Of a DNA stretch of 64,000 nucleotides, positions 33,202 through 64,000 are shown one piece after another. The DNA lies in the IMG/VR virus record IMGVR_UViG_3300045988_147571. One strand, written 5' to 3'. Positions within the stretch are counted from its first letter, which is position 1, and every line of letters begins with the position of its first letter. The translations under genes and the position numbers were made by a program. This DNA comes from a virus. The notes beneath the pieces are model-generated. The model did not search any database, was not told where the DNA came from, and saw only the letters and a list, made by a program, of their open reading frames with translations.

Positions 33202-33273
33202 GTCCGGTTAGTCTAGTGGTTAAGACACTGCGCTTTCAATGCAGTAACATGGGTTCGATTCCCGTACCGGATG
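33202..33273 (+). tRNA. tRNA-Glu (UUC)
   Basis: Hand-folded cloverleaf: acceptor GTCCGGT/ACCGGAT, D stem GTCT/AGAC, anticodon loop CTTTCAA, T-loop TTCGATT. Confidence 0.85.
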
Positions 33274-42164: not shown

Positions 42165-42625
42165 ATGAAACTTAATTTTTCTAGTAATGAAGTAAGAAAC
42201 ATTTTTGCAGAAAATGATTATGCAGAGTACTCCCAGCTTATGTTTGACACAGCTATGGGAGAAGAAAAAGTATCTACAAAAGATGCTAATGACAAGATCA
42301 GAGAGATCATGTTCTCCGTACTTGGTGTAGATGAAAATTGCACTAAGAAAGAGCTTAGAAAAGCTATTCGTAGACATAAAATTGATGTATTTGAAATCAT
42401 CGAGGAAACAGTAGAGAATCTGCTTGTTTCTGGTTGGGGAGAAAACCCATTCTTCAATGAATTCGTAGAGATTAAATCTATGGCTGATGGTGATACTAAT
42501 GAGTTCTATGTACCGGATGAAGTTATTCTGACAGTGTCTGAACTTGCGGGCAATCACCATGATCTGATCAGACAGCGCCTGGCAGAAGGACAGACATTCT
42601 CTGTTAAAACTTCTTGGTATGGGAT
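42165..42625 (+). CDS. Major capsid protein, exon 1
   Basis: Strong SD. Ends ...FSVKTSWYG-I(2 nt). The track ORF reads on into the intron to 42635. Confidence 0.65.
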
Positions 42626-43866
42626 TAACTTTTAGTCCCCTTAACATTGTGAAATGTTTTGAAATAAATAACGCATTGAATTGCTGGAAAACCTTAAAGC
42701 TAGTTAAACTACAACGTAATCTAAAAAGATAAGCGTGAATGTAACGAAAGTAGAAAAAATTAACTAGATGATACATGGTTCAATCCTAAATATCATGAGT
42801 AATTAGACACCTGTTTATAGGTGTTTTTTATTATGCTCAAAAATAGGCAATCAGCAGCTAAGACTTTTTAAAATGAGTAAAGTTCAACGACTATCTGGAG
42901 ACAGAGTACATATACAAGTGTTTGGTATATGGAAGTGGTGCGCACCCTCGATGGGTGAAGATATAGTCTAATCTTTAGCGAAAGTTAAAGGGCTTTAAGC
43001 CAACACGGAGTAGCGTCCGATTAATATCATTTTTCAAAATAATTATATAAGGAACTATGAATGCAAGAAAAATTATGTGGTATTTATTGTATAAAAAATA
43101 CTTTAAATAACAAAAAATATATTGGTATGTCAAGAGATATAAAACGAAGATGGTCCGAGCATAGAACAGAATTAAATAGCCACACTCATGTTAATCAATA
43201 TTTACAATCTGCATGGGATAAGTATGGTAAATCAAATTTTAAGTTCTATGTTATTGAGTTATGTGAAGAAGAAAAACTTAGTGAACGTGAATGTTATTAC
43301 ATACAATTATATAAATCTTTATCTCATGAAAATGGATACAATTTAACAACTGGTGGTGAAAATACATCTATTGGTAAATCTGTTATATATTTGAAAGATG
43401 GAACGATTTATAACTATGTAAACGAAGCTGCTCAAGAAGCTAATGTTCAGTCCGTAACTATGATTAGTTGGTGCCGCAAGAAACATAACTATATGTATTT
43501 AGATGAATATAACACTCTTTCTAAAACAGAAAAAGAATACTGGAAAAATTTTAATTGGGAAGAATTTGACCATCAAAAATTAAGTCAAGCACATTCTCGT
43601 GAAAATCTCTCAAGGGTCACAATAAACAAATTAAGTCAAGCTACATCTGGAGATAATAATCCAAGAGCACTTAAAGTTTATTGCCCACAGCTAGATGAAA
43701 CATTTGATTGTATAAAATATGCCTCTGACAAATATGGAGTTAATAGAAGTAGCATATCTTCGTGTCTTAAAGGAAGACTTAAAAGTGCCGGTAAGCATCC
43801 CGTTACCGGAGAAAAACTAACATGGGAAACAGTTGAAAAATGATATTGAATTGTTAAATATAAATG
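42626..43866 (+). mobile_element. Group I intron in the major capsid gene
   Basis: P1 pairs exon GGGAU with 42635..42639 GUCCC (U-G at the splice site). P10 pairs exon-2 UAAAA with 42630..42634 UUUUA. P7 is GACUA 42889 / AGAUAUAGUC 42959..42968. The terminal G is at 43866. The spliced frame reads WYGIKIYAEYELFMAGRIDW. Confidence 0.8.
43061..43843 (+). CDS. Intron-encoded GIY-YIG homing endonuclease
   Basis: CGIYCIKNTLNNKKYIGMSRDIKRRWSEHR...YYI...GYN, plus C-terminal DNA-binding repeats. Confidence 0.8.
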   Translation: MQEKLCGIYCIKNTLNNKKYIGMSRDIKRRWSEHRTELNSHTHVNQYLQSAWDKYGKSNFKFYVIELCEEEKLSERECYYIQLYKSLSHENGYNLTTGGENTSIGKSVIYLKDGTIYNYVNEAAQEANVQSVTMISWCRKKHNYMYLDEYNTLSKTEKEYWKNFNWEEFDHQKLSQAHSRENLSRVTINKLSQATSGDNNPRALKVYCPQLDETFDCIKYASDKYGVNRSSISSCLKGRLKSAGKHPVTGEKLTWETVEK

Positions 43867-44485
43867 TAAAATTTACGCAGAATATGAGCTGTTTATGGCA
43901 GGTCGTATTGACTGGGCTGGATTTGTACAGAAAATCTATGAAGCCTTTGATAAGAAAATCAACGATATGGTATATGCAGCTGTAATGGCAGCAGGTGAGA
44001 AGGTTCTCCCGTCTACACAGTTTAATAAGACAGGTACACTTTCATCAACAACAAAAGATGAGTTTATGACTCTGATTGAAGATGTACAGATGGCTACAGG
44101 TGATGAAGTAGTTGTTATGGGTACCAAATCTGCTCTTGCAAAACTTTCTGCTATGGAAGATATCACTTGGGTATCTAATGAGATGAAAAACGAAAGACAT
44201 ACTACAGGTCGTTTAGGTCTGTTTGAAGGTATTCGTCTTGTTGAAATTCCTCAGAGATTTGCAAATAATGATACAACTACTAAGTTAGTAGATAATACTA
44301 AGCTTTTGATTATGCCAGTAGCTGATAATAAATTTATCAAGATCTACAATGAAGGCGACGCTCAGATTAAAGAAGTATCTGATGGAAATACAAATATGGA
44401 TAAAACTATTGAGTATGAATATCAGCTTAAAATGGGTGTAGCTACAATTATTGGTAAACGATTTGGAGTTTGGACACTCAAATAA
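43867..44485 (+). CDS. Major capsid protein, exon 2
   Basis: The frame is open from 43850. Exons 1 and 2 total 1080 nt, an in-frame 359 aa. A strong hairpin follows. Confidence 0.65.
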
Positions 44486-51159: not shown

Positions 51160-53694
51160 ATGGCTGATTATACAATACAAGTAGGCGTAGAAGTTGAAGA
51201 TAGTAAATTGGATGCGCTGGAAACACGAATTAATTCATTAAAAGATAAACATGTTAAACTCAATGTGGATTTTGGTAATAGTAAGCAGTTGGCTAGAAAC
51301 GCTCAGACAGCGGTAAAAACTATTAATAAAGCTACTGTAAAAGCTGCCAAAAACAGTCCTTCAATTAAGGGGGCCAATCTTGTAGAACAAATGGTTGATC
51401 CCGAAAAAGCTTTAAAAGCAATGTCTAGTACAGTTGGCAAGCTATCTAAATATCAGGGAAAACTTGATTTAGGAGAAGTAAGACTTTCAGTTAATCAAGG
51501 GATTATGGGAGAACTAGATGGTCTTCTTAGTAAATTAAATGAAATTAAAGCAACTGCTAAGAACATGGGATCCATCAAACTTACTGTTGGTGATAATATT
51601 AAAACACAAGACGGTAAAATAGTTGTTGGATCAAATAGCAGTGCCTCTACTGGTTCTGTCAGATCATCTGGACTAACACTTAGACAAGCGCAGGCCGAAA
51701 TCAAAAAAAATATGAAAACCATTGGTACTTTACAAGAACAGTATATCAATGGTCATGTTGATGAATCTACATATAGACAGTCAAAAAAAACTATAGGACA
51801 AAGAAATGCTTATTTAGCAAGAATGGTGCAAACTCAAGGTACTGCTTCTGACTGGGTTACTTCTGCTACTGATTTTAGAGAAGCTCAAGCCAAGAATCGA
51901 GCTGCCTATAGAGAGATGATGTCTAGTGCTGATGCCTATGATAAAGTAATTAGTGATTTGGGTGAAAAACAAAAAACATTTAATGAAGCTGCTCAAGTAT
52001 ATAATTCTAACAGTAGAAGTCCATTAAATAAGACTTTAGGACCCGGATATCAAGCAAGGCTTACAGCTTTTAATGATGTCTATGGTCAATTAAAAGAGTC
52101 ACATGATAAAATCTCCACGCTTACTGGAGATGAAAAAGATCTTGAAAAAGTACGTTTCAGCGCTCTTAAATCTGAAGCTAATCGTCAAGCCAGACAGCTT
52201 AATAATGTGAGTCAGTTTTTCTCAAAAACTCCAAATAAATATAGTAGATCTGAATTTGTAGGTACAGACTTAGATGTGACTTCTGATAAAGTTCAGAATA
52301 AAATGTCACAAATGGTTGATAATCTTGCTAATGGCAGTAGATATACTAAAGAATTTAATGCAGCACAAGGAAAAATGTATGCTACAATAGACAGAGGCTC
52401 TGGTGTATTTGAAAAATATCAGCTTGCATACAAAAATGGGCCAGGTAATATCGATCAGTCTCTTAGCAAAGTCACTCAGAGCGTAAAACCTCTTTCTAGT
52501 TACATTTCTGAAATGGGACAAAAGTTCCGTAGTCTTAGCCAGTATCTTATCAGTAATTTCGGATTCCAAGCTTTAACAACAGGTATCAGATCAGGTGTTA
52601 CATCTATAAAAGAATTAGATTCAGCAATGACTGAATTAAAGAAAACCTCTGAAGGTACAAAACAGGAATATAGAGACTTTACTACTCAAGCTAGGAGTGA
52701 CGCTAAAGATATCGGTAGTACGACTACTCAGATTACTAATAGTGCTGCTGATTTCTCACGTCTTGACTACACACTTGGCGAATCTCAAACTCTAGCTAAA
52801 AATACTGGTATATTAAAAAATGTATCAGAATTTGAGTCTATAGATGATGCAACAACTGCTATGATTTCTATGATGAAAGCATATGATGTAAAAGTTGATG
52901 ATTCTATGGATCTCATTGATAAAATGAATCTTATTGGTAACAACTATGCAATTTCTACAGATGGAATTGCTACCGCTTTACAAGATTCAGGTTCAGCATT
53001 GGTAGCAGCGGGAAACGACTTTGACAAGTCAGTTGCTCTTGTGACGGCTGCTAATAGTGTAGTACAGGACCCATCAAAGGTAGGCGCTGGTCTTAGAACA
53101 ATTGCTTTACGACTTAGAGGCACTTCTGCTGAAGAATTATCTTCTATGGGTGAAGATACAGAAGGTCTTGTAGAGACCACTTCTAAACTTAATTCAAATA
53201 TTAAATCTCTTACTGCCGTTAACGGTAAGGCTGGAGTTTCTATTCTTGATATGAATGGAAACTATAGAGATACTTATGATATTTTAAAAGATATCTCTCA
53301 GGTTTGGGATGATATTGGTAAGCAAGATTTGGCAGATGGTCAGAATAGACAGGCTGCTCTGCTTGAAATGATGGCAGGAAAAAATAGAAGTAATATTCTT
53401 GCATCCATATTACAGCATCCTGAATTACTTACAGATGTTTATAATGATTCCGCAAATAATTATCAAAATTCAGCTCAGAACGAGCTTAATACATACCTTG
53501 ATTCTATCGAAGCAAAAACAACTAAAATTAAAGAATCTTGGTCACAGTTATGGCAATCAGAAGGTAGTACTAATACTTTTAAAGGATTGCTTGATATTGG
53601 CAACGGCGCTGTAGGACTCTTAAATGGTTTAGGACTCAATAAAACCTTAGCCGGAGTCGGCGGTATGCTTGTTAGCCATGCTATGAACTGGGGT
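51160..53694 (+). CDS. Tape measure protein, exon 1 (845 aa)
   Basis: GTGAGGTGAG SD. Long coiled-coil sequence. The track ORF reads 27 nt into the intron. Confidence 0.7.
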
Positions 53695-54114
53695 GGGACA
53701 AATTATCAGTTGGTCCTTTAGAAAACGCCCCATGTAACCTGGTGGTGACACGGAACGATCTCATATGAGAAAGGGGTTACTAAGCAAACAACCGAAACTG
53801 TCTTTATTCGAAGGAATAGAGAAATGCTTTTAATTTGGCATTCAGGGTGAACCGAAGTATATACTACTCCCCTATTACAGTAATGTAATAGGTATAGTAA
53901 CAACGTATATATATGGGTAATCTGCAGCGAAGCTTCTTTATTTTATAGAGAAGAACGTTCATCGACTATAATGGGAACTTGGTCTCCGGATCAAGAAGGA
54001 ATAGTCAGGACTGTTAGGCAGCTTACGCCGAATAAATTAAAGGGTAAATACATCTTACTCTTGTAAGCAATCTTACCTTATGTGCAAAGGTGATGTAAGC
54101 ACAAAAGCAAGAGA

Positions 54115-54225
54115 TTACTCTCCTGCTTCTTTATGTTTAATATAATATGTACAATCTTCATTTTCAAAGTAAGGACATTCCTCTTCCTTACATTCTTTGT
54201 AGAGAGGACATTCTAATATTTCCAT
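54115..54225 (-). CDS. Unlisted 36-aa Cys-rich peptide (MEILECPLYKECKEEECPYFENEDCTYY...)
   Basis: ATG 54225 lies 9 nt after GGAGGT. It is the third gene of the antisense cassette. Confidence 0.4.
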   Translation of the reverse strand: MEILECPLYKECKEEECPYFENEDCTYYIKHKEAGE

Positions 54226-54300
54226 AATCTTTAAACCTCCATAGTATAGTTTTGTTGACTGTCTAAAAGAAATTATTGATTAATTTTCAGAATATAACCT

Positions 54301-54852
54301 TTAATGATTTAAAAAACATTGATCTAACTCTAATAATATTTTTTCCAAATCATCTATATTGATAATAAGAAAAAATTTTCCTTTATGATCTTCTCTAATA
54401 TCTTCGTCTTCAAATTGTATAGCTTTTATTTCAGTACTTGCGTTATGAGTTAATGGATGAATCATTAAACGATCATGGCAGACAGCATTCCTTAAATGTT
54501 TAATTACATTTCTTTCACAATTATTTTCTTTGTATGTGTTTTTATAGATCTCATTATACGTCTTATTAGTGAGTCTTTTTAATGTAGGCACATTCTGAAA
54601 ATTATCTTTTCTATTAGATAGATAATTAAAATATTTCTCTTTTGGAAAAACAAGTAACCCCAAAAAAGAATTTATTAATTGAGTGACCTCATAACATTTT
54701 TGATACTCAAATTCATTGGCAAACATAATTCTTTTTAAACAAGAAATCTCTTTATTTTTATTATGTCCAGCTAATTTTTGAATCATGAAATAATTCATTT
54801 GTGTCCTACAAATAAACTCTTTAACATAATCATCATCTTTAAAATTACTCAT
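54301..54852 (-). CDS. HEPN-domain protein (Rx4H motif)
   Basis: NVIKHLRNAVCHDRL contains R-N-A-V-C-H. EVTQLINSFLGLLVFPKE resembles stand-alone mobile-element HEPN families. Confidence 0.6.
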   Translation of the reverse strand: MSNFKDDDYVKEFICRTQMNYFMIQKLAGHNKNKEISCLKRIMFANEFEYQKCYEVTQLINSFLGLLVFPKEKYFNYLSNRKDNFQNVPTLKRLTNKTYNEIYKNTYKENNCERNVIKHLRNAVCHDRLMIHPLTHNASTEIKAIQFEDEDIREDHKGKFFLIINIDDLEKILLELDQCFLNH

Positions 54853-54858
54853 AAACTA

Positions 54859-55362
54859 TCACCAAGTATATCCACAAGAGTTACACTTAAAGCTCTTGTT
54901 AATCTTCTTACTGAATAATCCCAATATTCCTACTGATACCATACGTTCTCCTGTAGAGATTTTACGAATATTGGTGGAACCACATGTTGGACACTTAGGC
55001 CCAGTAGAGAATTTCTGAGCATTCTGTTTGGCATACCACTGGTCTGTTATCCTGTTTTGCTCTTCTATTCCTTCAGGAGATTCACTATATTTTCTTTTTT
55101 TAACGGCAGAGTAATCTACTTCATTGTCTAACTTTCCATAAAAATATTTTTGCCTAAATATCTCAGATGATTCCAAATGACTAGGACAATGACCATCATG
55201 AGTTTTCTCATATTCTTTTGATAGCTCCATATATGCTGTAGACCAATCAATGCCAGTACCTATATAAGTTCCAGTTTCACAGGTATAACATTTATCTCCT
55301 ATTTTATAAGAAGAAGATGTACTAGTCTTTCCACATTTATTACAAAATAATAATTCTTCCAT
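54859..55362 (-). CDS. Double zinc-ribbon protein
   Basis: N-terminal CNKCGK...CYTC and C-terminal CPTCGS...CNSCG. AAAGGAA SD. Confidence 0.6.
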   Translation of the reverse strand: MEELLFCNKCGKTSTSSSYKIGDKCYTCETGTYIGTGIDWSTAYMELSKEYEKTHDGHCPSHLESSEIFRQKYFYGKLDNEVDYSAVKKRKYSESPEGIEEQNRITDQWYAKQNAQKFSTGPKCPTCGSTNIRKISTGERMVSVGILGLFSKKINKSFKCNSCGYTW

Positions 55363-55403
55363 ATTGTTCCTTTTTATTATATATAGTAATTAAGATTAGC
55401 TAT

Positions 55404-55432
55404 ATTATATCACACAGTTTGGTTTTCGCCAA
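55404..55432 (-). promoter_or_regulatory. Antisense promoter straddling the 3-prime splice site (TTGGCG-17-TGaTATAAT)
   Basis: Minus sense reads TTGGCG aaaaccaaactgtgtga TATAAT. The -35 lies in exon 2 and the extended -10 in the intron. Confidence 0.5.
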
Positions 55433-58400
55433 GAATGAAGATGGAGAAATTTTACCGCAATCACGAAGAGCTCAACGTAATGCTGCTATAGCGAAAGGTT
55501 ATGTAGAAGCCAATAAAAATTGGCAAGCATATTCAGATGATTTAGAAGTTCTTAAAGAGCTTAACAAGCAACTTGATAATAATGGTCAGGCCATTACAGA
55601 CAACGAGCAACGTATGGCCAAAGCAAATGAAGTAACGAAGAATGCTAGTCAAAGAGCTAAAGATTATGGTAAACAAATGGCCACTAATGCTAAGACTCTC
55701 ACTGATTTTAAAAGAGAAAATGAGGTAGAGAAACCTGATCAACAGAAACAAGGGAAATGGTCCGATGGTCTAAAAAGTATGGCATCTGCAGGTCTCTCAA
55801 TGATTGGCAATGCTTTTATTTCCGCTGGTGTTGGAATGCTTGTGCAAGGAGCTTTCTCATTGCTTGGTAAAGGCATTGACGCTTTCGTTCATAAAAATGA
55901 GAACTTAATTGCTAAAGGTCAAGAAGCAAAAGAATCCATTCAATCCCAAACTAAAGCCTATGAAGACCAGAAAGCATCTCTTGGAGAACTTACTTCCAAA
56001 TACACAGAATTATCTAAAGGCGTAAAAATATCTGGTAATTCTATTAAAAATATTAGTCTTACAGATGATGAATATAAGGATTTCTTAAATACAAGTAATC
56101 AGATTGCTGCCGCAGCACCTAGTCTCACACGTTCATGGGACTCCCAGGGTAATGCCATTCTTAATGCTGGGACTAATGCTGAGGATTTAAACACTCAGAT
56201 TAATGATTACTTGAAGTTACAGAGGAACCTTACTTACTATGATACTAAGAAAAATATTAGTAATCAGTATGAGGGATATGAAACTGCTTTAGGTACTAAC
56301 GAGCGTCAAAAAAATGATTACAAAGATAAATATGATGCAGCAAAATTTAAAGTTAATTCTATGCAGAATTTTTCGAATATGCTTAAAAAGCAAAAAAAAG
56401 GAGAAGATACCTTTAGCTACACATTGGATCAAGCTGCATATGATGCACTCGGCAATACCTTTGGAAAAGCAATAAAAAACTATACACAATCTGCTGATGG
56501 TCAAACAATAACTTTGGAATTTGATGGCAAACAATTAGATTTTCTTAACAACGAAGCAGCCAACATATTAAGTTCTGATAGTAGTGAACTTCAAGAAGCT
56601 CATACCAATTTAGTTAATACACAAGAATCTATAGATGCAGCAAAAAGAGAAATGGTTTCTTCTATCAAGTCAATGGCAAGCACTATTGATTCTTTTGATA
56701 GCTGGGACGATCAAGATAAAGCATCAGAATTTCAATCACAGTTGAATAGTATGCTTAATTCTACGGACAATACCAGATTGCTTAATGATTTTAAAGAATC
56801 CGGTAAAGATATGGACACATGGCTTCGCAATAACATTGTGAACCCTATGTCAACTGCAAATTCAGATGAACAAAAACTTTGGGAACAAGCATTTGAAATG
56901 GAGCCTAAAGATAAAGAAACAGTTCAAGAATTTGCCGCTCGTAGAAATAATCTTTTCGATCAGATTGCTGCTATTTCTGACAGTGATTTTTGGGATAGAG
57001 ATACACTTGGAGAAGCTTTTGGCTTTAACCATACAGAATATGATGATAATGGAAAAGCTGAATTTGTATGGGAAAATCAAGATAAGTTAAATCGAATACA
57101 AGACGCATTGAAAAATGCAAAAGCCAGTAAAACAAAAGGCGATGCTTCTGATGTAAGAACAGATCTTAATAATATGACCCCTGATGAGTTGGACATAGCT
57201 GTACAAGTTATTACTGACTCAGATGCTTTAACTTCTATAGATTCTTTTTATGAGGCATTCGAAAAGGCTAAACAAGCAGCTAAAAATATGAGTGATCAGG
57301 CAGCCGTTTCTTTAGATTCAATGGAAACTAAAGTATCAACTGCTAAGTCTACTCTTTCTTCTATGGGAACTATTCTTACAGAGACTACTTCTGCAGGCGG
57401 AGTTTCTAAAGACAATGTTAAGATTCTTTCTACTGCTTTCAAAAATGTGAAAGACCCTCGTGGCATTGAGCAAAATGTTAATGATTTATTCACCACTACT
57501 TCTGATGGTATCAAACTAAACATAGATGCTTTGAAAACCTTTACGGAATATCAGACTGAAGCCACTGATGGAGATTTCGAAAAGGGTATTAAGTTACAGA
57601 CTAAAGCTATTGCCGAGCAAGCAGAAGAAACAGATAAAGCTTGGAAAGCTATTGCTAAAGCCGATGACAAGGAAGCAGCTAGAGCAACTTATAACGCAGA
57701 AAAAGATAAATTAAAAGATGCTAGAAACGAATATTTATCTTATATGCAATCTCAGTCTGAATGGCAAGCAACTAAGAAACAGCAACAGGAACTTCTTTCT
57801 TATTATTCTCAGTGGCAACGTGCCCAGAGTACGGAGAATGCCGGAGATAAATATAATAACATTGTTGCCGGACTAAAAAATGCTAAAGATGCATATGATA
57901 AAGGTCTTGTAGGTACAGATGATTTTAAATCATTTGCTGCTCTTATTTCTCCTACAGGTTCAGATGATAGAGCAAACTTTGCAGAGAATTATGGTAAAGC
58001 TGTAAGATACCTCACAGAAGATAAGACAGGTGTTAATAATTTCTTAGCTGATCTTAAATCTAAGGGTATGGCATCTTATGATGATGCAAGTAAAAGATGG
58101 TCATTTGACATAGATGATATGAGTAAAGCCGCTCGATCAATGGGAATCAGCAAAGAATTCATGAGTGCTAACTTCGGTCGTCTTCGTGATTATGGCATTG
58201 ATAATAATTTTATATCATCTACAGAAGAAGGTATAGATAGGGTTCAGGAACTTACTTCTGCTCTTTCAGACGAACAAAAACGACTTGAAGAATTAAAGAA
58301 TACGGATAGCACCAATACTACTGCTATTACTGCTTCTGAGGACAAAGTTAATAAATATAAACAGGATTTAAAAGAAACCTATGATAATATGGGTGACTAC

Positions 58401-61400
58401 TCTGAAGATGCTGCACAGACTGCTGTTGATAATTTTAATTCGGCAGCAATGGGTGTACAATCATATCAGAATGCAATAGAAAATGTTAAAAAGAATGAGA
58501 ATCTGACAGAAGCTCAAAGAACTTCTGCAATTAATCAATTAATAGCTAAACAGGAAGAATTAGCTGCCACTTACGGTACTACTGTTAAAGAATTATTAGG
58601 AGCAGATGTATCTTCATTAATGGATGGCATTATAACAGATTCTGCTTCTGTTACTACTGCTCTTGATGGTATCAATAAAGCATATGAAGAACAGAACACA
58701 GATGTTACTTCTTTAGTTGACACTCTTGGAAAATATACTTCTGAACAGTTAGAAGGTATAGATTTCAATGATGGTAAGTGGGATACTGAATTAGGCGATG
58801 CTGAAAAAGCTGTTGAGTCTTTATGTGAGAAGCTTGGTTTAACAAAAGACCAAGCTCGTTCTGTTATTGAGGCTTTAAAAGAAGCTGGTAAATTAAAAGA
58901 TTCTGAGGAAAGTAGTGATTCCTCTAAAGAAACTACTAAGGGGTCTTGGGAGAAACCACAGACTGCTGAACAGATGGGATTCGGTGATGATCCTGACAGA
59001 GCTGCTGAATATACACATTCATTGGAAGCTCTTACTGCTGCCCATAAAGAAAATGATGCCGCTACTGAAAAGTCATTTGAAACCCTTTCTAAATATAATC
59101 GTACACAATTAGAGGGTATCAAATTAAATGATGGTGCTTATAATGTTGAGGGTATAGAACAGGCTGAAGATGCCATACAACAGTTAGCAGATAAGACTCA
59201 GTTGTCTAAAGATCAGATTCTTACTGCTCTTGAAGGTCTTGGTGTTTTGAAAGTTAATGCTCCTACTATGGATGCGACAAAAGGTTTGGAAGATTTAGTT
59301 TCTGAGGCTAAAGATGCACAGGACGAATTGTCTGATCTTACTGGTAAAACATACACATTTGATTTTGATACTACTGATTTAGATACTGCTCATAAACAGG
59401 TAGCTGACCTGCAGGAAGAAGTAAATAAATATAGAGATCGTGATGGTAAATACCATCCAGAGATTACTGGCGGAGAACAGGTGCAATCAATGTACAAAGC
59501 CGCTATTGCTCAAGAACAGAATGCTGAATATAGTTCTTCTGCTATTGGACAGTCTAGTTTATCATCAGATGTCGTACAAGCTGCTCAAGATTTTATGACA
59601 GCTAAGAATGAAATGGATCAGCAAACTCAACTTTATCAAAATGGAATGGATAATACTCTTGATAAAGCTACAGAGAAAGCTAACGCCGCATTTGAATCTT
59701 TACAACAAGCTCAAACTGATTCGGGTATTGAACTTGTAGATACTAATAATATTCAAAAAGCTGAAAATCAGTTACTTTCTATGACTGATAAAGATTTACA
59801 GGCTAAAATAGATGTTCAAGCAGATACAAGCGATGCCGAAGCAGAATTAGATGTCCTAGAAGAATTGGACGGATCTACACTTAAGCTTACTTGCGAATTA
59901 TCGGATGAAGATAGTTTTGAACGAGCTAAATCTGCTATTGAATCTATGCCAGCTAACACCGTTACAACCGTAGATATGGAAGTTAATGGTGAAGAGGATG
60001 TAGAGAAAGCAACAGAGCTTATTGAATCGGCACCTACTGATGGTACTGAGCTAGTTGTTAACTGTCATGTTGATAATGCTGAAGACTTAGATAAAATAAA
60101 TGAAGCTGCTGCAACTGCCAAAGCAAACGGAGCAAATATTAAAATAAACGCTACTGTTGGTGAAGTGGATGCTTCAACTGCTACGAGTACAGAACCTGTT
60201 AAAATGACAGGTGAAATAGAAAGTGCAGAATATACTGGCGCTCCAGTTGAAATAGAAGCTACAGCAAATATTACTAATGTGACTAATGGTGATTCCGCAG
60301 AAGTTAATCCTACAATAAATACGGATGAAGTGGATAACTATACTGTCGATGACAAAGAAGTAAATGTTGATTTTAAAAAGAATTCAGATGAAGTTGATAA
60401 TTATCAACCGGACGATAAAGATGCAACTGCCTATTATGGAGTAGATTCTTCAGCACCAGATAGTTATCAGCCGAGTGATAAAGATGCATATATCACGTAT
60501 CATATACGTGTTGAAGGAGGAATAGCTGCTGGCATTCCAAATAGTCCTTCTGGAGGATCTGGTGGTTCTTTTGCTACAGGTACAATGGCATCAGTTGCTC
60601 GTGCAGATGGTACAATGTACAATGCACCTTGGAACTATCAACTTCTCTCTTCTGCTTTTGCAAAAGGAGATGCTGCTTTACATAAAGACGAAAAAGCGTT
60701 AGTAAACGAAGTCGGGACCGAATCTATTGTGCGTGACGGTACTTGGTTTACGATTCCTGGCGGAGCACATCTTGAGAATCTTAAAAAAGGAGATATTATT
60801 TTCTCTGCTCAACAGACTAAAGATTTACTTGAACATGGCGCAACACCGGGACATGCTAGAACTTATGCACAAGGCACAGCCCCAGGATTAAGTATCTCTC
60901 CTGCTTTCTCATCTGGTTCTAGTTCTTCTACTAACACAGAATTAGATAACAAAATCAAAGAAGTTAGTACTCAGGCAAAAGACTGGATAGACGTAGCTCT
61001 TGATCGTTTAGAGAGAATCGTTGAAAAATACAAAGACACTGCTGAAAGTGACTATTCCAACTATAGAGCTTCTATTAAGGCTTACAATTCAGCACTTAAA
61101 AATCTTAAAAACCAATTAAAGACTCAAAAAGATTCCAGAGCAAAGTATGTAACTAAAGCAGACGAAGTCGCTTCTGCTGTCGGATTGTCTGACGATTTAA
61201 AAAAGAAGGTTCAAAATGGTACTATCAATATAGAGAACCTGTCAGAAGATGATAAAAAACGTGTTGATGCATATCAGGAATGGTATGAAAAAATCTTAGA
61301 CTGTGACAAAGCTATACGTCAGCTCACTATTTCGCAGAAAGATTTAGCTAAAGCTAAAGTTGATCGGGTTACTGAAGCTTATGACACTGTTATAGGCAAA

Positions 61401-64000
61401 CGTGAAAGTAAAGCTGAATATTACAAAGCAAAACAGGAATTAAGAATCACTCAAGGTTACAATCAGAAACCTGGATCTATTTATGAGAAGTATATAAAAA
61501 ATGAACTTTCTTATACTAATAAACAGAAGAAACTTACTGATAAGGAAATAAAAACCTATAAAGGTAAGATGAAAGAATATCTTGCAGAAAATGGTCATAA
61601 AACTGTTGATCCTGAATATCAGAAAATGAAGAAACAGCTTTATGATCTGGAAACCTCAGCTGTTAAATTAGAGAATGAAGCCGCACAGTTAAGACAGGCT
61701 CTACAAGATAATCGTGAACAGATTAAACAATGGGCGGTTGACCGTTGGGAAAGAGCTGGTAGTAAACAAGATGCAGTAATTAATTATAAGACTGTTTCTG
61801 ATGATCCAAACTATCAGATCAAGGAAAAGGATTACACTGAGAGAATCAAAACAAATAATCGTCAGATTATAGCTTTACAGAAGTTGAGAGCAGAAAAAGC
61901 TGAGTACTATGACAGTTATTTTAAGAGCGGAAACAACGAAGAAGCTCAGAAATATCTTGAAGCTATTGCTCAGATTGACGAACAGATTCTAAAACTTGGA
62001 GCTAGTACAGAAGAGTTAAAGAATCAAATCATGGAACTTCGTTGGAAGCCATTTGAAGATATTCAAGATGACCTTTCTAATGTAATCAGTGAGTATCAAA
62101 CCATGCAGAAGCTTCTTGGTGATACAGAAAGTTTCTACAATGACGATGGATCTTTCACTGAAAATGGTTTGACAAATATCCTTCTTTTACAGGAATCTAT
62201 TGATGTTACTAAGCAGAAAATAGCTAACTATAGAGAAGCTTTAGACAAACTAGATGAACAGTATAAGAATGGTTGTTATAGTCAGGAAGAATATACTGAG
62301 AAATCTAAAGAGCTATTAAACGGATTACAGCAAGAGTCTGCTGCCCTCTCTGATTTGCAACAGAATATGCTTACAATGTATGAGACTCAGGTTAAAACTG
62401 AGAATGATCTCTTACAGAAAAATATTGATAAGCGTTTGGAAGCTCTTGATGCTAAAGAGAAGTATTATGAGTATGATAAGACTTTGAAAAAGAAGTCTAA
62501 AGATATTAATACTCTGAAGGCACAGATAGCAGCCCTTGAAGGAACAAGCAATGCTGCTGCCAAAGCCCGTTTAGAAAAATTAAAGGCTGAATTAGCAGAA
62601 TCTGAAGAGGATATGCAAGATACTGTTCATAATCATGAAACTGAAATGAAGAAAACAGGTTTTGAGAATCTTCAATCAGATGCTGAGAAAGCTCTTGATA
62701 ATACCTTAGATGCACTGAAAAAGAATACCAATTTTCAGCAAGCAGTTATTGGTAATATGTTATCCAATGTAACTGCTAATTATGATAGTACCTATAGTCA
62801 TCTGCATGATGTTATGGATCAATATGGAGTACAGGTGTCTACTACATTTGATAAGATGATTACTAAGTCTGCTAATTTTAATACGTCCTTAGTAGCACAG
62901 ACTAAAGCTATGCAAGATGTTATTAATATGGCTACTAAACTTCCTGCCAATCTTGGCGGGACTGCTACTGACATTGTAAATAATACTGCTAAAGTTAATG
63001 GTACTTCAACCGGAGCCGGTAATGTAACGCCGGGAAAAGTAAATGATACGACTTACTCTCTGAAGTTAAATGCATCAGAAATTTATCTAACATACAGTCA
63101 TTTGAAATATTCATTGAAAGCTACATGGTCTCCAAGTAAACCGGAACACTCTGATATTGAATGGTCGAGTACAGATAAATCAGTTGCAAAGGTCTCAACT
63201 TCTGGTGTTGTTACAGGTGTAGCTGCGCCACTTAGTAAACTTGGATTAATGTCAAGAGATGAATCTTTGACTAGAAAATGTAAGATTATTGCAAATGGTG
63301 GTCCGGGTCTTGCAAAAGCTGAGTGTACGGTACATATTATGCCAGATGAACATTATAATGCCATTAAGCAATATGCTGATAAAGTTGGCATCGATACTTC
63401 TAAAGAAGGCAATAATCTTAGAGATGCTATGGAATACGCTTATAAAAATGGTGCATTCCGAAGCAATCAGTCAAGTACCGCTGTTGAAGGATTCCAGAAA
63501 GCTTATCTAAAAGACTGGTTTAATGCTCTTCCAGACCGTCCTAACGGTGCAACGGATGTTCCTAGTGGAGTTAGTCAGCTAGCTGGATATTTCTATTCCA
63601 AAGGTAAACAAGTCACACGTAATGATATGCAGAAACTTGCTGATATCCTTCAGATTAAAACTCCGGGAGTTGGAAGTTATGATACCTGGGGTGGCACACT
63701 TAAAAATAAGATTCTGAAAGCATACAAAGCTTATGGTTATGCTACTGGTGGCGTAATCAATAGACTTGTTCCTGCCAATATGGAAACACTCTTAGGTAAA
63801 GCAATCATCTCCAATGGAGATCAAGGTTTTATTGGCGCTAAAGTTGGAGAAACCGTAATGACTGAAGAGTTCACTCGTTTGCTCAAACCTTCTATTGCTG
63901 CAATGAGCGACTTTACCAATATGTTTAACCCAACTACTCCTATTGCTACCACAAATAATGATTATTCTATCAACAATGAGGTAAACATTAATGTAGCAAG
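55422..64000 (+). CDS. Tape measure protein, exon 2 (at least 2859 codons, open at the right edge)
   Basis: This frame starts VFAKNEDGEILPQ. It has no listed ORF because no stop falls in the window. Spot-translated at 55.4, 60.5 and 63.9 kb without stops. A Big_2-like segment lies near 63.0-63.2 kb. Confidence 0.7.

What the first reader, a model, noticed from the sequence alone, without database searches (positions are those of the whole stretch)
53695..55421. Group I intron in the tape-measure gene whose P9 loop carries a 1.4-kb antisense gene cassette
The track ORF 51160..53721 ends abruptly, and a very long open frame with no start codon resumes at about 55.42 kb.

The hand-derived pairings fit a group I intron:
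- The 5-prime exon end UGGGGU pairs with GCCCCA 33 nt downstream, placing the U-G wobble at the splice site.
- GAAAAC, immediately 5-prime of that guide sequence, is perfectly complementary to the first 6 nt of the proposed exon 2 (P10).
- A GACUA...UUGGUC-UCCG-GAUCAA...UAGUC core (P7-P8-P7') sits at 53964-54006.
- GACUGU (54009) pairs with ACAGUU (55414), two nt before a terminal G.

Splicing joins the exons in frame (...SHAMNWG|VFAKNEDGE...).

Everything between the two P9-like strands is non-ribozyme. It encodes three ORFs on the opposite strand, with no recognisable homing endonuclease. Antisense cargo is something I know only from a few eukaryotic rDNA group I introns, not from phages. 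Tape-measure genes are also an unusual intron target.
Basis: partly seen in the sequence, partly recalled or inferred. Interest (0 to 1): 0.88.

Follow-up and report, generated by a model that had tools for sequence, protein, structure and literature searches.

The report
Phage intron carrying swappable gene cassette
A self-splicing group I intron splits the giant tail tape-measure gene of an uncultured gut phage, and it carries its own backwards-facing operon (zinc-ribbon protein, HEPN RNase-like protein, tiny Cys-rich peptide) instead of a homing endonuclease; in related phages the same spot holds 0 to 9 different toxin- or defence-like genes (up to 8 kb), so the intron looks like a safe parking place for exchangeable accessory genes.

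Summary
At 53695-55421 a group I intron interrupts the tape-measure (TMP) gene.

Splice signals:
- P1 UGGGGU/GCCCCA has a U.G pair at the 5' splice site.
- P10 is a perfect 6-bp pairing, GAAAAC/GUUUUC.
- The intron ends in omega-G 55421, and the exons join in frame.

Ribozyme evidence:
- Rfam Intron_gpI matches 53794-54028 at 25 bits, below Rfam's threshold.
- P7 and P8 show compensatory changes across about 10 related intron classes.
- Distant relatives have one continuous 4,300-5,400-aa TMP ORF across the site.

The 1.3 kb between the 5' core (to about 54105) and the last ~25 nt is a self-contained minus-strand operon. It has a sigma-70-type promoter (TTGGCG-17-TGaTATAAT) that straddles the 3' splice site. 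It encodes a 167-aa zinc-ribbon protein, a 183-aa HEPN protein (Pfam pEK499_p136) and a 36-aa Cys-rich peptide, followed by a terminator hairpin. I found no homing endonuclease.

In 24 close and about 50 distant relatives (SPbeta-like phages and prophages of gut Clostridia) the same site holds introns of 0.7-8.0 kb. Their inner gene content varies: ToxN, PemK/MazF, NYN, GmrSD_N, DUF4145 and others. The distal 3' splice sites are marked by unique 8-10-bp P10 pairings.

The exact "P9 loop" pairing is plausible but unproven. Splicing itself is inferred, not shown.

This is a new variant of a known kind; the closest known are IStrons and the T4 sunY intron.

The parts
51160..53694 (+). Exon 1 of the tape-measure gene (845 codons). 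The annotated ORF runs on to a stop at 53719-53721, inside the intron.
   Evidence: ORF list and translation. Pfam PhageMin_Tail E 6e-17. The last 6 nt, UGGGGU 53689-53694, form the 5' strand of P1.
53695..54105 (+). Group I ribozyme: P1 loop hairpin, guide sequence, P2-P8 core and P9-type peripheral hairpins.
   Evidence: Rfam Intron_gpI 53794-54028, 25.4 bits. This block is about 95% conserved in all 24 close relatives. An MFE fold of a cargo-deleted construct recovers P1, P2, P6, P7 and P8. P7 and P8 covary across classes.
53721..53732 (+). Internal guide sequence: GAAAAC (P10 strand, 53721-53726) plus GCCCCA (P1 strand, 53727-53732).
   Evidence: Read directly from the sequence. It is the best joint P1+P10+frame solution. 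In relatives the guide sequence changes together with the exon end.
53964..54006 (+). P7 (53964-68 / 54002-06) enclosing the P3' strand and the P8 hairpin (53979-84 / 53989-94).
   Evidence: RNAalifold on 10 intron classes predicts 12 pairs, 10 of them with compensatory changes.
54103..54131 (-). Terminator-like hairpin ending the antisense operon (stem, then UUUUGUGCUU). Coordinates are approximate.
   Evidence: The 54095-54150 stretch, which holds the 11-bp stem, folds to -16.9 kcal/mol on the minus strand and -11.8 on the plus strand, where the structure differs. The consensus terminator scan did not list it.
54115..54225 (-). 36-aa acidic Cys-rich ORF with a GGAGG ribosome-binding site. 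It lies in a block (54119-54254) conserved in nearly all cargo variants.
   Evidence: It is called as a gene on public contigs.
54301..54852 (-). 183-aa HEPN-domain protein (Pfam pEK499_p136) with the motif R-NAVC-H (Rx4H). This is the variable cargo gene.
   Evidence: Pfam E 2.6e-15, 56.9 bits against a cut-off of 26.6. GC is 25-28% against 35-39% in the exons. Relatives carry other genes in its place.
54859..55362 (-). 167-aa double zinc-ribbon protein (family 'F00'). In the islands that have it, it is always the gene next to the 3' splice site.
   Evidence: Present in 27 of 41 islands, always on the minus strand and always last. Its conserved C-terminal motif is CPxCGS...CxxCG. No match to a known fold or family.
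55404..55432 (-). Sigma-70-type promoter of the antisense operon: -35 TTGGCG (55432-55427, inside exon 2), 17-nt spacer, extended -10 TGaTATAAT (55412-55404).
   Evidence: Best promoter match in the region, 10 of 12 positions plus the TG motif. An AAGGA ribosome-binding site precedes ATG 55362.
55398..55421 (+). 3' terminal segment of the intron: ACAGUU(U) 55414-55420 (possible P9/P9.0-type strand) and omega-G 55421.
   Evidence: The omega-G and ACAGU are invariant in 23 relatives although the flanks diverge. Candidate partners are 54008-54014 and 54090-54097.
55422..64000 (+). Exon 2 of the tape-measure gene. It starts with GUUUUC (P10 strand) and stays open for at least 2859 codons to the end of the window.
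   Evidence: Translation. No Shine-Dalgarno sequence precedes it.

Best explanation
This is a self-splicing group I intron in the giant tape-measure gene of an SPbeta-like phage or prophage of gut Clostridia. Its layout is unusual. All of the catalytic RNA sits in the first ~410 nt. The 3' splice site is 1.3 kb further on and is specified only by a short terminal segment, an omega-G and a 6-bp P10 pairing with the guide sequence.

The stretch in between is an independent transcription unit on the opposite strand. Its promoter spans the 3' splice site. It encodes a zinc-ribbon protein, a HEPN (predicted RNase) protein and a 36-aa peptide, and it ends in a terminator.

Proposed mechanism:
1. Late in infection the TMP pre-mRNA is read through the cassette.
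2. The ribozyme folds.
3. An exogenous G attacks after U53694.
4. Exon 1 attacks after G55421.
5. The exons join as ...NWG|VFAK..., giving one TMP of more than 3,700 aa.

The cassette is expressed on its own, in the lysogen or early in infection. It is one allele of a hypervariable accessory island that in relatives holds 0 to 9 genes, many of toxin-antitoxin, abortive-infection or defence type. The intron therefore acts as a neutral 'safe harbour' inside an essential gene. The conserved ribozyme on one side and the conserved 3' zinc-ribbon gene on the other provide homology arms for exchanging cassettes.

What is shown: the sequence anatomy, the comparative pattern, and covariation of P1, P7, P8 and P10. 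What is inferred: splicing activity, read-through transcription, timing of expression, a defence or exclusion role for the cargo, and exchange by recombination.
For: - Splice-site anatomy and reading frame fit.
- Rfam gives a core match.
- An MFE fold of the cargo-deleted intron recovers P1, P2, P6, P7 and P8.
- P7 and P8 show compensatory changes across 10 intron classes.
- The exon end and guide sequence change together: UGGGGU/GCCCCA, GGAGGU/GCCUCC, GAAGGU/GCCUUC, GUAGGU/GCCUAC, GUCGGU/GCCGAC, CUGGGU/GCUCAG.
- Relatives have P10 pairings of 8-10 bp lying 1.3-8.0 kb from the core. Each target is unique in its 20-kb locus and sits exactly where the TMP frame resumes.
- A relative (L012 type) has exon 2 starting GUUUUU, which keeps P10 through a G.U pair.
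- A homologous intron without cargo exists (L027, 695 nt).
- TMP ORFs are continuous in L052, L063, L081, L092, L108 and in several MAG prophages.
- There is no ribosome-binding site before exon 2.
- The antisense promoter, ribosome-binding sites and terminator are present.
- Cargo identity and variability are documented.
- The cargo has low GC.
- IStrons show experimentally that an IA2 core followed by kilobases of ORFs can splice to a distal 3' splice site (10.1101/2023.11.20.567912).
Against: - There is no RNA evidence. Splicing is inferred from sequence only.
- The Rfam score (25.4 bits) is below the gathering score (50). Rfam found no Intron_gpI at the gathering score in seven related loci searched, and none at E <= 0.01 in L025, L027 and L029.
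- P3 is weak.
- The closing P9-type helix has no covariation support.
- Late transcription must cross 1.3 kb of convergently transcribed DNA.
- An in-frame TTG exists at 55419.
- The cargo proteins match no PADLOC defence model. The function of the zinc-ribbon protein is unknown.
- For several related intron classes (L058, L074/L025 and L054 types) the 3' splice site could not be assigned unambiguously.
Confidence: 0.82

Rival explanations
1. The region holds two separate genes. The TMP is made as an N-terminal 853-aa protein and a C-terminal protein that starts at TTG 55419. An ordinary intergenic 'moron' island lies between them, and the group I-like RNA is a dead relic or a coincidence.
For: - An in-frame TTG lies at 55419, and gene callers use it.
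- No public predicted protein spans the junction.
- The Rfam score is below the gathering score.
Against: - There is no Shine-Dalgarno sequence before 55419.
- Exon-1 homologues in about 50 relatives all stop within 15-200 nt of the same point, after unrelated run-on sequence.
- Guide sequences track the exon ends, and 8-10-bp P10 pairings sit exactly at the point where the frame resumes.
- P7 and P8 covary.
- Other relatives have a single continuous ORF.
Confidence: 0.05
2. The intron is functional but works in pieces. Transcription from exon 1 ends inside the island. Exon 2, with the 3' tail of the intron, is transcribed separately, and the two RNAs associate and trans-splice.
For: - Islands of up to 8 kb contain genes on both strands, presumably with their own terminators, between the core and the 3' splice site.
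- Possible long-range helices link the core periphery to the 3' tail.
Against: - No plus-strand promoter was identified just upstream of the 3' tail. In the window only 59 nt separate the zinc-ribbon start codon from the 3' splice site.
- The terminator in the window is stronger on the minus strand than on the plus strand.
- IStrons splice in cis across comparable cargo.
- As far as I know, trans-splicing group I introns are known only in organelles.
Confidence: 0.05
3. The cassette is the mobility module of the intron. Under this reading the conserved zinc-ribbon protein, or in relatives the plus-strand GmrSD_N/DUF262 protein, is a new kind of homing endonuclease or DNA-targeting factor. The other genes are hitch-hikers.
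For: - The zinc-ribbon gene is the most conserved occupant (27 of 41 islands). It is the only ORF in the minimal L051 intron (1,274 nt).
- The GmrSD_N protein sits directly after the core on the sense strand in 15 islands.
- Presence or absence of the intron is polymorphic among relatives.
Against: - No nuclease domain was detected by Pfam, NCBIfam, PDB sequence search or fold search.
- Only a ~45-aa zinc-ribbon segment with a hydrophobic loop is conserved, and some family members have N-terminal membrane helices.
- The gene is antisense with its own promoter.
- Cargo-free introns exist (L027, L066).
Confidence: 0.1

Closest known systems
IStrons (CdISt1 of Clostridioides difficile; CboIStron/CseIStron; 10.1101/2023.11.20.567912)
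   Same: - A group I (IA2-type) ribozyme sits at the 5' end, followed by 1-2 kb of protein-coding cargo, with the 3' splice site at the far end of the element.
- Hosts are Clostridia.
- Cis-splicing across the cargo has been shown experimentally for IStrons.
   Different: - IStron cargo is an IS605/IS607 transposase, TnpB and omega-RNA on the sense strand, and the element moves as a transposon to many sites.
- Here no transposase or TnpB is detected.
- The cargo is an antisense operon with its own promoter.
- The element occupies one fixed site in one gene.
- The cargo is hypervariable.
T4 nrdD (sunY) intron architecture (from my own knowledge: Xu & Shub 1989; Michel et al. 1990)
   Same: The catalytic core lies entirely upstream of the ORF. 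The 3' splice site is far from the core and is chosen by P9.0/P10-type pairings and the omega-G.
   Different: The sunY ORF is on the sense strand and is a (degenerate) homing-endonuclease gene. It is a single ORF of about 0.8 kb, with no variable multi-gene island.
Classical phage group I introns bearing a homing-endonuclease gene, e.g. the second intron in this same window (42617-42990 plus a GIY-YIG ORF) and the SPbeta bnrdE/bnrdF introns (the latter from my own knowledge)
   Same: Both are self-splicing group I introns in an essential gene of an SPbeta-like phage, and both are optional among relatives.
   Different: Those introns carry a recognisable homing endonuclease on the sense strand and score above the Rfam threshold (71 bits). 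The TMP intron has no homing-endonuclease gene and carries toxin- or defence-like cargo.
Nuclear rDNA group I introns with antisense homing-endonuclease genes (from my own knowledge: Haugen, Johansen and colleagues)
   Same: A protein gene lies on the strand opposite to the ribozyme, inside a group I intron.
   Different: Those are eukaryotic and carry a single His-Cys-box endonuclease gene. They do not carry a bacterial-promoter-driven operon of non-endonuclease genes.
Prophage and satellite defence hot spots such as the P2 and P4 variable loci (from my own knowledge: Rousset et al. 2022)
   Same: A fixed locus in a phage genome is flanked by conserved sequence, and diverse defence or toxin-antitoxin genes are exchanged there between close relatives.
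   Different: Those hot spots are intergenic. Here the hot spot lies inside a self-splicing intron in the middle of an essential structural gene.

Membership tests
Group I intron (Rfam RF00028) | P1 helix between the exon end and the internal guide sequence, with U.G at the 5' splice site | tested here: met
   UGGGGU 53689-94 pairs with GCCCCA 53727-32. The guide sequence changes together with the exon end in at least 9 related classes.
Group I intron (Rfam RF00028) | Conserved catalytic core (P3-P8, with P7 as the G-binding helix) recognised by the family covariance model | tested here: inconclusive
   A full-length model match at 53794-54028 scores only 25.4 bits against a gathering score of 50 (E 7e-4 in a 1.9-kb search). 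There was no hit at the gathering score in the 64-kb scan or in 7 related loci.
Group I intron (Rfam RF00028) | Core helices maintained by compensatory base changes | tested here: met
   RNAalifold on 10 intron classes predicts 6 pairs in P7 and 6 in P8, and 10 of the 12 show double compensatory changes. Examples for P7: GACUA/UAGUC, GAGUC/GACUC, GACUG/CAGUC, GAGCA/UGCUC, GCUAU/AUAGC.
Group I intron (Rfam RF00028) | Terminal omega-G and P10 pairing that define the 3' splice site, with an in-frame exon junction | tested here: met
   G55421 is invariant in 23 relatives. P10 is 6/6 Watson-Crick pairs. Relatives have 8-10-bp P10 pairings whose targets are unique in their loci. The junction is in frame.
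Group I intron (Rfam RF00028) | Intron-less alleles with uninterrupted coding sequence | tested here: met
   ORFs are continuous across the site in L052, L063, L081, L092, L108 and in L113, L119, L121, L122, L124, L127, L128. These are distant relatives (31-50% aa identity), so the junction could not be aligned residue by residue.
Group I intron (Rfam RF00028) | Guanosine-dependent self-splicing activity | not testable with these tools
   This needs an in vitro transcript assay or RNA-seq.
IStron | Group I core at the 5' end with ORFs between the core and the 3' splice site | tested here: met
IStron | IS605/IS607 tnpA and/or tnpB within the element | tested here: not met
   Pfam finds no transposase or TnpB domains in the window's three ORFs or in 26 cargo proteins from relatives scanned (six from close relatives, twenty island-family representatives). 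The only hit is a sub-threshold Zn_ribbon_IS1595 match, 22.7 bits against a cut-off of 25.4.
Mobile group I intron with a homing endonuclease | Intron-encoded LAGLIDADG, GIY-YIG, HNH, His-Cys box, PD-(D/E)xK or VSR-type endonuclease | tested here: not met
   None is found by Pfam, PHROGs, NCBIfam, PDB sequence search or fold search with the AF2 model (best E 0.4).
HEPN superfamily (Pfam PF18736 pEK499_p136) | Profile match above the curated cut-off, plus the Rx4-6H motif | tested here: met
   56.9 bits against a cut-off of 26.6, E 2.6e-15, covering residues 7-179. The motif R-NAVC-H is read directly in the translation. RNase activity was not tested.
Catalogued anti-phage defence systems (PADLOC-DB 2.0) | Match to a model of a known or candidate defence protein | tested here: not met
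   No hits for the HEPN protein, the zinc-ribbon protein or three cargo proteins from relatives. The defence role is therefore an inference from domain types (HEPN, ToxN, PemK, NYN, GmrSD_N, DUF4145).

The most novel reading that the evidence does not exclude
Group I introns in the tape-measure gene of SPbeta-like gut phages serve as dedicated, heritable 'safe harbours' for exchangeable defence, toxin or exclusion cassettes. The islands hold 0 to 9 genes, up to about 8 kb, on both strands. They would be excised as RNA from the mRNA of an essential gene, by ribozymes that select a 3' splice site kilobases away through P10 alone. That would make them by far the largest bacterial group I introns I know of, and the first in which the intron's main payload is host- or competitor-directed weaponry rather than its own mobility enzyme. 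The promoter of the conserved antisense zinc-ribbon gene overlaps the 3' splice site, which raises the possibility of cross-talk between cassette expression and TMP splicing.
Probability: 0.45. Interest if true: 0.82.

Novelty: new variant of a known kind. Interest (0 to 1): 0.7.

Why it matters
Phage group I introns are usually treated as selfish ribozyme-plus-homing-endonuclease units. Here the payload is a promoter-driven antisense operon with a HEPN protein. Across the family it is a rapidly exchanged set of toxin-antitoxin, abortive-infection and restriction-like genes.

If splicing is confirmed, three things follow.
- It would show a new way for phages to carry accessory or defence islands, inside an essential late gene at no coding cost.
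- It would extend the known size and architecture range of bacterial group I introns: a 5' core with a 3' splice site up to 8 kb away.
- It would give a rich, sharply bounded source of candidate phage-competition genes from abundant uncultured gut phages.

There is also a practical point for annotation. These giant TMPs are called as two genes with 'intergenic' cargo in every public record I examined.

Tried and rejected
- Near-identical DNA in cultured phages: none found. A tblastn search with the junction peptide hit only the Brevibacillus phage Sundance TMP, on the exon-1 side.
- Predicted proteins spanning the junction: none among 273 hits. Intron-less alleles had to be found at the DNA level instead.
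- Rfam on relatives: no Intron_gpI at E <= 0.01 in L025, L027 and L029, and none at the gathering score in 7 loci. The Rfam model is insensitive to these introns, so I relied on covariation that I derived myself.
- First automatic splice-site search: too permissive, because it optimised P10 over weak P1 candidates. I replaced it with a joint score and no gap. The L058, L074/L025, L054/L055, L064 and L076 classes remain unresolved. My hand assignment for L025 (5-bp P10, phase 2+1) is tentative.
- Search for a conserved P9/P9.0-type pairing between the segment after P7' and the 3' tail in other classes: nothing consistent. Within the window's own class both candidate helices are invariant, so they are uninformative.
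- Zinc-ribbon protein: Pfam, PHROGs, PADLOC, NCBIfam, PDB sequence search and AF2 plus Foldseek gave only generic zinc-ribbon similarity.
- HEPN and zinc-ribbon proteins against cultured phages: no match, and a single unannotated faecal contig, respectively.
- Literature: I found no paper on a TMP intron with defence-like cargo. A search for the pEK499_p136 family returned only plasmid papers.
- I did not build a custom covariance model. The calibration time and the hand alignment it needs were judged not worth it, given the evidence already in hand.
Full report
**1. What is in the window**

The ORF 51160-53721 has a PhageMin_Tail domain (Pfam E 6e-17). It stops 27 nt after the proposed 5' splice site. 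A frame that stays open for 2,859 codons to the end of the window resumes at 55422.

- P1 is UGGGGU 53689-94 with GCCCCA 53727-32, with U.G at the splice site.
- GAAAAC 53721-26 lies immediately 5' of that guide sequence and is perfectly complementary to the first six exon-2 bases, GUUUUC 55422-27 (P10).
- P7 is GACUA/UAGUC, 53964-68 / 54002-06.
- P8 is UUGGUC-UCCG-GAUCAA.
- G55421 is the last intron base.

The junction reads ...SHAMNWG|VFAKNEDGE in frame.

The exon-2 frame is open from 55326 and has an in-frame TTG at 55419, which public gene calls use. No Shine-Dalgarno sequence precedes it, and the next ATG is 65 codons downstream.

**2. Is this more than chance?**

- Rfam's Intron_gpI model aligns end to end with 53794-54028 when the 1.9-kb region is searched (25.4 bits, E 7e-4). 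That is below the family's gathering score of 50, and it was not reported in the whole-window scan.
- I ran an exhaustive search over every U in the exon-1 tail, every downstream G that could pair with it, and every frame-compatible G-preceded position near the start of the exon-2 frame.
- GGUUUUC occurs five times on the plus strand of the 64-kb window, once exactly at the required place.
- I folded a construct in which the cargo was replaced by GAAA. The unconstrained minimum-energy structure contains P1, P2, the P5 extension, P6, P7 and P8.

**3. Comparative evidence, close relatives**

A protein-guided scan of viral contigs returned 24 close relatives (L001-L024).
- All carry the same 5' splice-site context and about 95% identical sequence over window 53434-54105.
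- The 3' splice site could be mapped in 23 of them. All of these have the terminal G and the ACAGU motif.
- Their introns are 1,711-3,846 nt long.
- The L012-type relatives have a diverged exon 2 (66% identity) that begins GUUUUU. This keeps P10 through a G.U pair.

**4. Comparative evidence, distant relatives**

No predicted protein in the large protein database spans the junction. Even homologues at 48% identity, annotated 'TP901 family tape measure protein', stop at the same point after unrelated run-on residues.

A second scan, using an alignment of the exon-1 C-terminus, returned 80 loci.
- In L052, L063, L081, L092 and L108 the TMP is one continuous ORF of up to about 5,400 aa across the site.
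- Seven MAG or genome prophages are also continuous, including one in a complete Clostridiales genome.
- In about 50 other loci the exon-1 frame stops within 15-200 nt of the site, and the next long frame resumes 0.87-8.0 kb later.

The two ORFs are therefore halves of one gene, and the interruption is optional.

**5. The interrupting elements are group I ribozymes under selection**

The sequences after exon 1 fall into about 17 classes. In all classes I read by eye, a J6/7-P7-P3'-P8-J8/7-P7' segment is recognisable.
- RNAalifold on ten class representatives recovers P7 and P8, and 10 of the 12 pairs show double compensatory changes.
- The guide sequence follows the exon end from class to class: GGAGGU/GCCUCC, GAAGGU/GCCUUC, GUAGGU/GCCUAC, GGUGGU/GCCACC, GUCGGU/GCCGAC, GUGGGU/GCCCAC, CUGGGU/GCUCAG.

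L027 has a homologue of the window's core with no ORF at all (695 nt). Its P7 (GAGUC/GACUC) and its P8 sequence differ from the window's.

**6. The distal 3' splice site is real**

For several classes, the bases immediately 5' of the P1 guide are complementary to the first bases of the resumed TMP frame over 8-10 bp:

| Locus | P10 | Intron length (nt) |
|---|---|---|
| L051 | 8/8 | 1,274 |
| L104 | 8 bp | 3,739 |
| L086 / L109 | 9/9 | 5,730 |
| L106 | 10/10 | 5,777 |
| L090 | 10 bp | 6,598 |
| L107 | 10 bp | 8,038 |

Each site is preceded by G and is in frame.

The G+target string is unique in its 20-kb locus for L051, L104, L106, L090 and L107, where 0.02-0.65 occurrences would be expected by chance. 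For L086 it occurs twice, the second copy lying about 3.7 kb into exon 2.

Three independent features therefore meet at one nucleotide kilobases from the core. I regard this as strong evidence that the whole island lies inside one intron. For the L058, L074/L025, L054 and some other classes I could not assign the 3' splice site with confidence.

**7. The cargo in the window**

The antisense operon has these parts.
- Promoter. The best promoter match in the region is on the minus strand: TTGGCG (55432-55427, inside exon 2), 17 nt, then TGaTATAAT (ending at 55404). It straddles the 3' splice site.
- A 167-aa double zinc-ribbon protein (55362-54859) follows an AAGGA ribosome-binding site.
- A 183-aa protein begins six bases after the zinc-ribbon gene's stop codon. 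It matches Pfam HEPN pEK499_p136 (E 2.6e-15) and contains an Rx4H motif.
- A 36-aa acidic Cys-rich ORF has a GGAGG ribosome-binding site.
- A hairpin plus U-run follows. The stretch that holds it folds more stably on the minus strand (-16.9 kcal/mol) than on the plus strand (-11.8).

GC falls to 25-28% over the HEPN gene, against 35-39% in the exons. The strand skews invert across the cassette.

None of the three proteins matches PADLOC or PHROGs. For the zinc-ribbon protein I checked further.
- More than 1,600 unnamed metagenomic homologues exist.
- Only a C-terminal ~45-aa motif, CPxCGS...(hydrophobic)...CxxCG, is conserved.
- Its AF2 model (pLDDT 77) has no significant structural neighbour.
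- It gave no significant match in NCBIfam or in the PDB sequence search.

**8. The cargo is one allele of a hypervariable island**

Among the 24 close relatives, three stretches are constant:
- the ribozyme, to 54105;
- the block 54119-54254, which holds the 36-aa ORF;
- the N-terminal two-thirds of the zinc-ribbon gene together with the 3' tail, from about 54955.

The stretch in between is swapped. It holds one of:
- the HEPN gene;
- a 102-aa membrane protein;
- a 225-aa HExxH protein;
- a 305-aa protein.

Some relatives also carry the 102-aa gene together with extra sense-strand ORFs. The exchange boundary lies inside the C-terminal zinc-ribbon coding segment.

Across 41 islands I counted 94 protein families.
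- The zinc-ribbon family is present in 27 islands, always on the minus strand and always next to the 3' splice site.
- A GmrSD_N/DUF262 protein is present on the plus strand in 15 islands.
- Other members include ToxN (E 6e-35), a PemK/MazF-like toxin with an HTH partner, NYN, DUF4145, DUF3800, DUF2513, DUF6173 and DUF3825.

These are domain types typical of toxin-antitoxin, abortive-infection and restriction loci. The defence or exclusion role is nevertheless inferred, not shown.

**9. Host and phage type**

- Neighbouring genes carry SPbeta-specific Pfam families: YonD_N, YonB, YomW, YomU_Tube.
- Related TMP genes lie in MAGs of Faecalimonas, Blautia, Kineothrix and other Lachnospiraceae or Clostridia, and in a complete Clostridiales chromosome.
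- No cultured phage in the GenBank collection is similar.

These are uncultured, probably temperate, SPbeta-like gut phages with exceptionally long TMPs.

**10.

- GGACUGU 54008-14 can pair with ACAGUUU 55414-20.
- L024 has ACAGUUC at this position, which turns a G.U pair into G-C.
- Immediately 5' on the tail, UAUAUCAC 55406-13 can pair with GUGAUGUA 54090-97. Together the two helices would place the cargo in the terminal loop of a composite stem.

Against this:
- both 5' strands are invariant in all relatives;
- L019 breaks the second helix;
- the tail overlaps the antisense -10 box, which could equally explain its conservation;
- the MFE fold pairs ACAGUUU elsewhere;
- no equivalent pairing was found in other classes.

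I treat the helix as plausible but unproven. The cargo lies after the P9-type peripheral hairpins, not directly after P7'.

**11. Comparison with what is known**

The architecture (5' core, kilobases of ORFs, distal 3' splice site) matches IStrons, for which cis-splicing has been demonstrated. From my own knowledge it also matches the T4 sunY/nrdD intron. It fails the IStron membership test because no transposase or TnpB is present. It fails the test for a classical mobile intron because no homing endonuclease is present.

New relative to what I could find:
- the antisense, promoter-driven operon as payload;
- the toxin- or defence-like and hypervariable nature of that payload;
- the size range, up to 8 kb.

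I classify it as a new variant of a known kind.

**12. Limits**

- There are no RNA or protein data.
- The Rfam score is sub-threshold.
- P3 is weak.
- Several related classes have unresolved 3' splice sites.
- Cargo function is inferred from domains only.
- The intron-less homologues are too diverged after the junction for residue-level alignment.

Noticed in passing
window 42617-42990 (+), extending to about 43890: There is a second group I intron, scoring above the Rfam threshold (Intron_gpI 71 bits). Public gene calls show a YonB-like gene split into two parts (about 42165-42635 and 43895-44485), with a GIY-YIG homing-endonuclease ORF (about 43061-43843, + strand) between them. This is a classical endonuclease-bearing intron in the same phage, again with the ORF downstream of the core.
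   Followed up: partly
window 51160 to beyond 64000: The spliced tape-measure protein is at least 3,700 aa (845 + 2,859 codons, still open at the window end). Intron-less relatives reach about 5,400 aa. These are among the longest TMPs I know of and imply very long tails. The neighbouring genes are SPbeta-like (YonD, YonB, YomW, YomU).
   Followed up: partly
L001/L004/L011 (between window-equivalent 53241 and 53434); L024 (at window-equivalent 53053): Close relatives carry further insertions inside exon 1 that the window lacks, of about 1.97 kb and about 0.86 kb. These are probably additional optional introns in the same TMP gene.
   Followed up: no
L064:13903-13983 (+): A skipping-rope RNA motif (Rfam RF02924, 76 bits against a gathering score of 36.7) lies inside the intron island of a related phage.
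   Followed up: no
L084:13470-14036 (+): A ToxN/AbiQ-type toxin (Pfam E 6e-35) lies inside a ~7-kb intron island. A ToxI-like repeat RNA would be expected upstream, but I did not look for it.
   Followed up: no
L058, L069, L088, L104 (about 450-650 nt after the 5' splice site); similar in L025/L086 ('AAAUCUCGAUUUC...'): Short sequence motifs are shared between otherwise different intron classes at the boundary between the ribozyme and the island. They include a G+C-rich hairpin (GAGGACAGUCGUGAYGACYUGCCCUC) followed by a ribosome-binding site and a 5-7-codon mini-ORF. They might be a terminator or leader, or a recombination landmark for cassette exchange.
   Followed up: no
L076:11474-12511 (+) and 14 other islands: A 325-345-aa protein with only the N-terminal GmrSD (DUF262) domain is the first sense-strand gene after the ribozyme in 15 islands. 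It could be a restriction-like cargo gene, or a candidate mobility factor for these introns.
   Followed up: partly
window 33202-33273 (+): A tRNA gene (Rfam tRNA, 65 bits) lies in the phage genome.
   Followed up: no
window 54859-54955 (-) compared with L001-L024: The last ~32 codons of the zinc-ribbon gene are exchanged together with the downstream cargo gene. There are two C-terminal variants: ...NIRKISTGERMVSVGILGLFSKKINKSFKCNSCGYTW comes with HEPN, and ...NLKKITGTRKAMKIGLFGLFGAGDLGKTYQCGQCGAKF comes with other cargo. The recombination breakpoint is therefore inside a coding sequence.
   Followed up: partly
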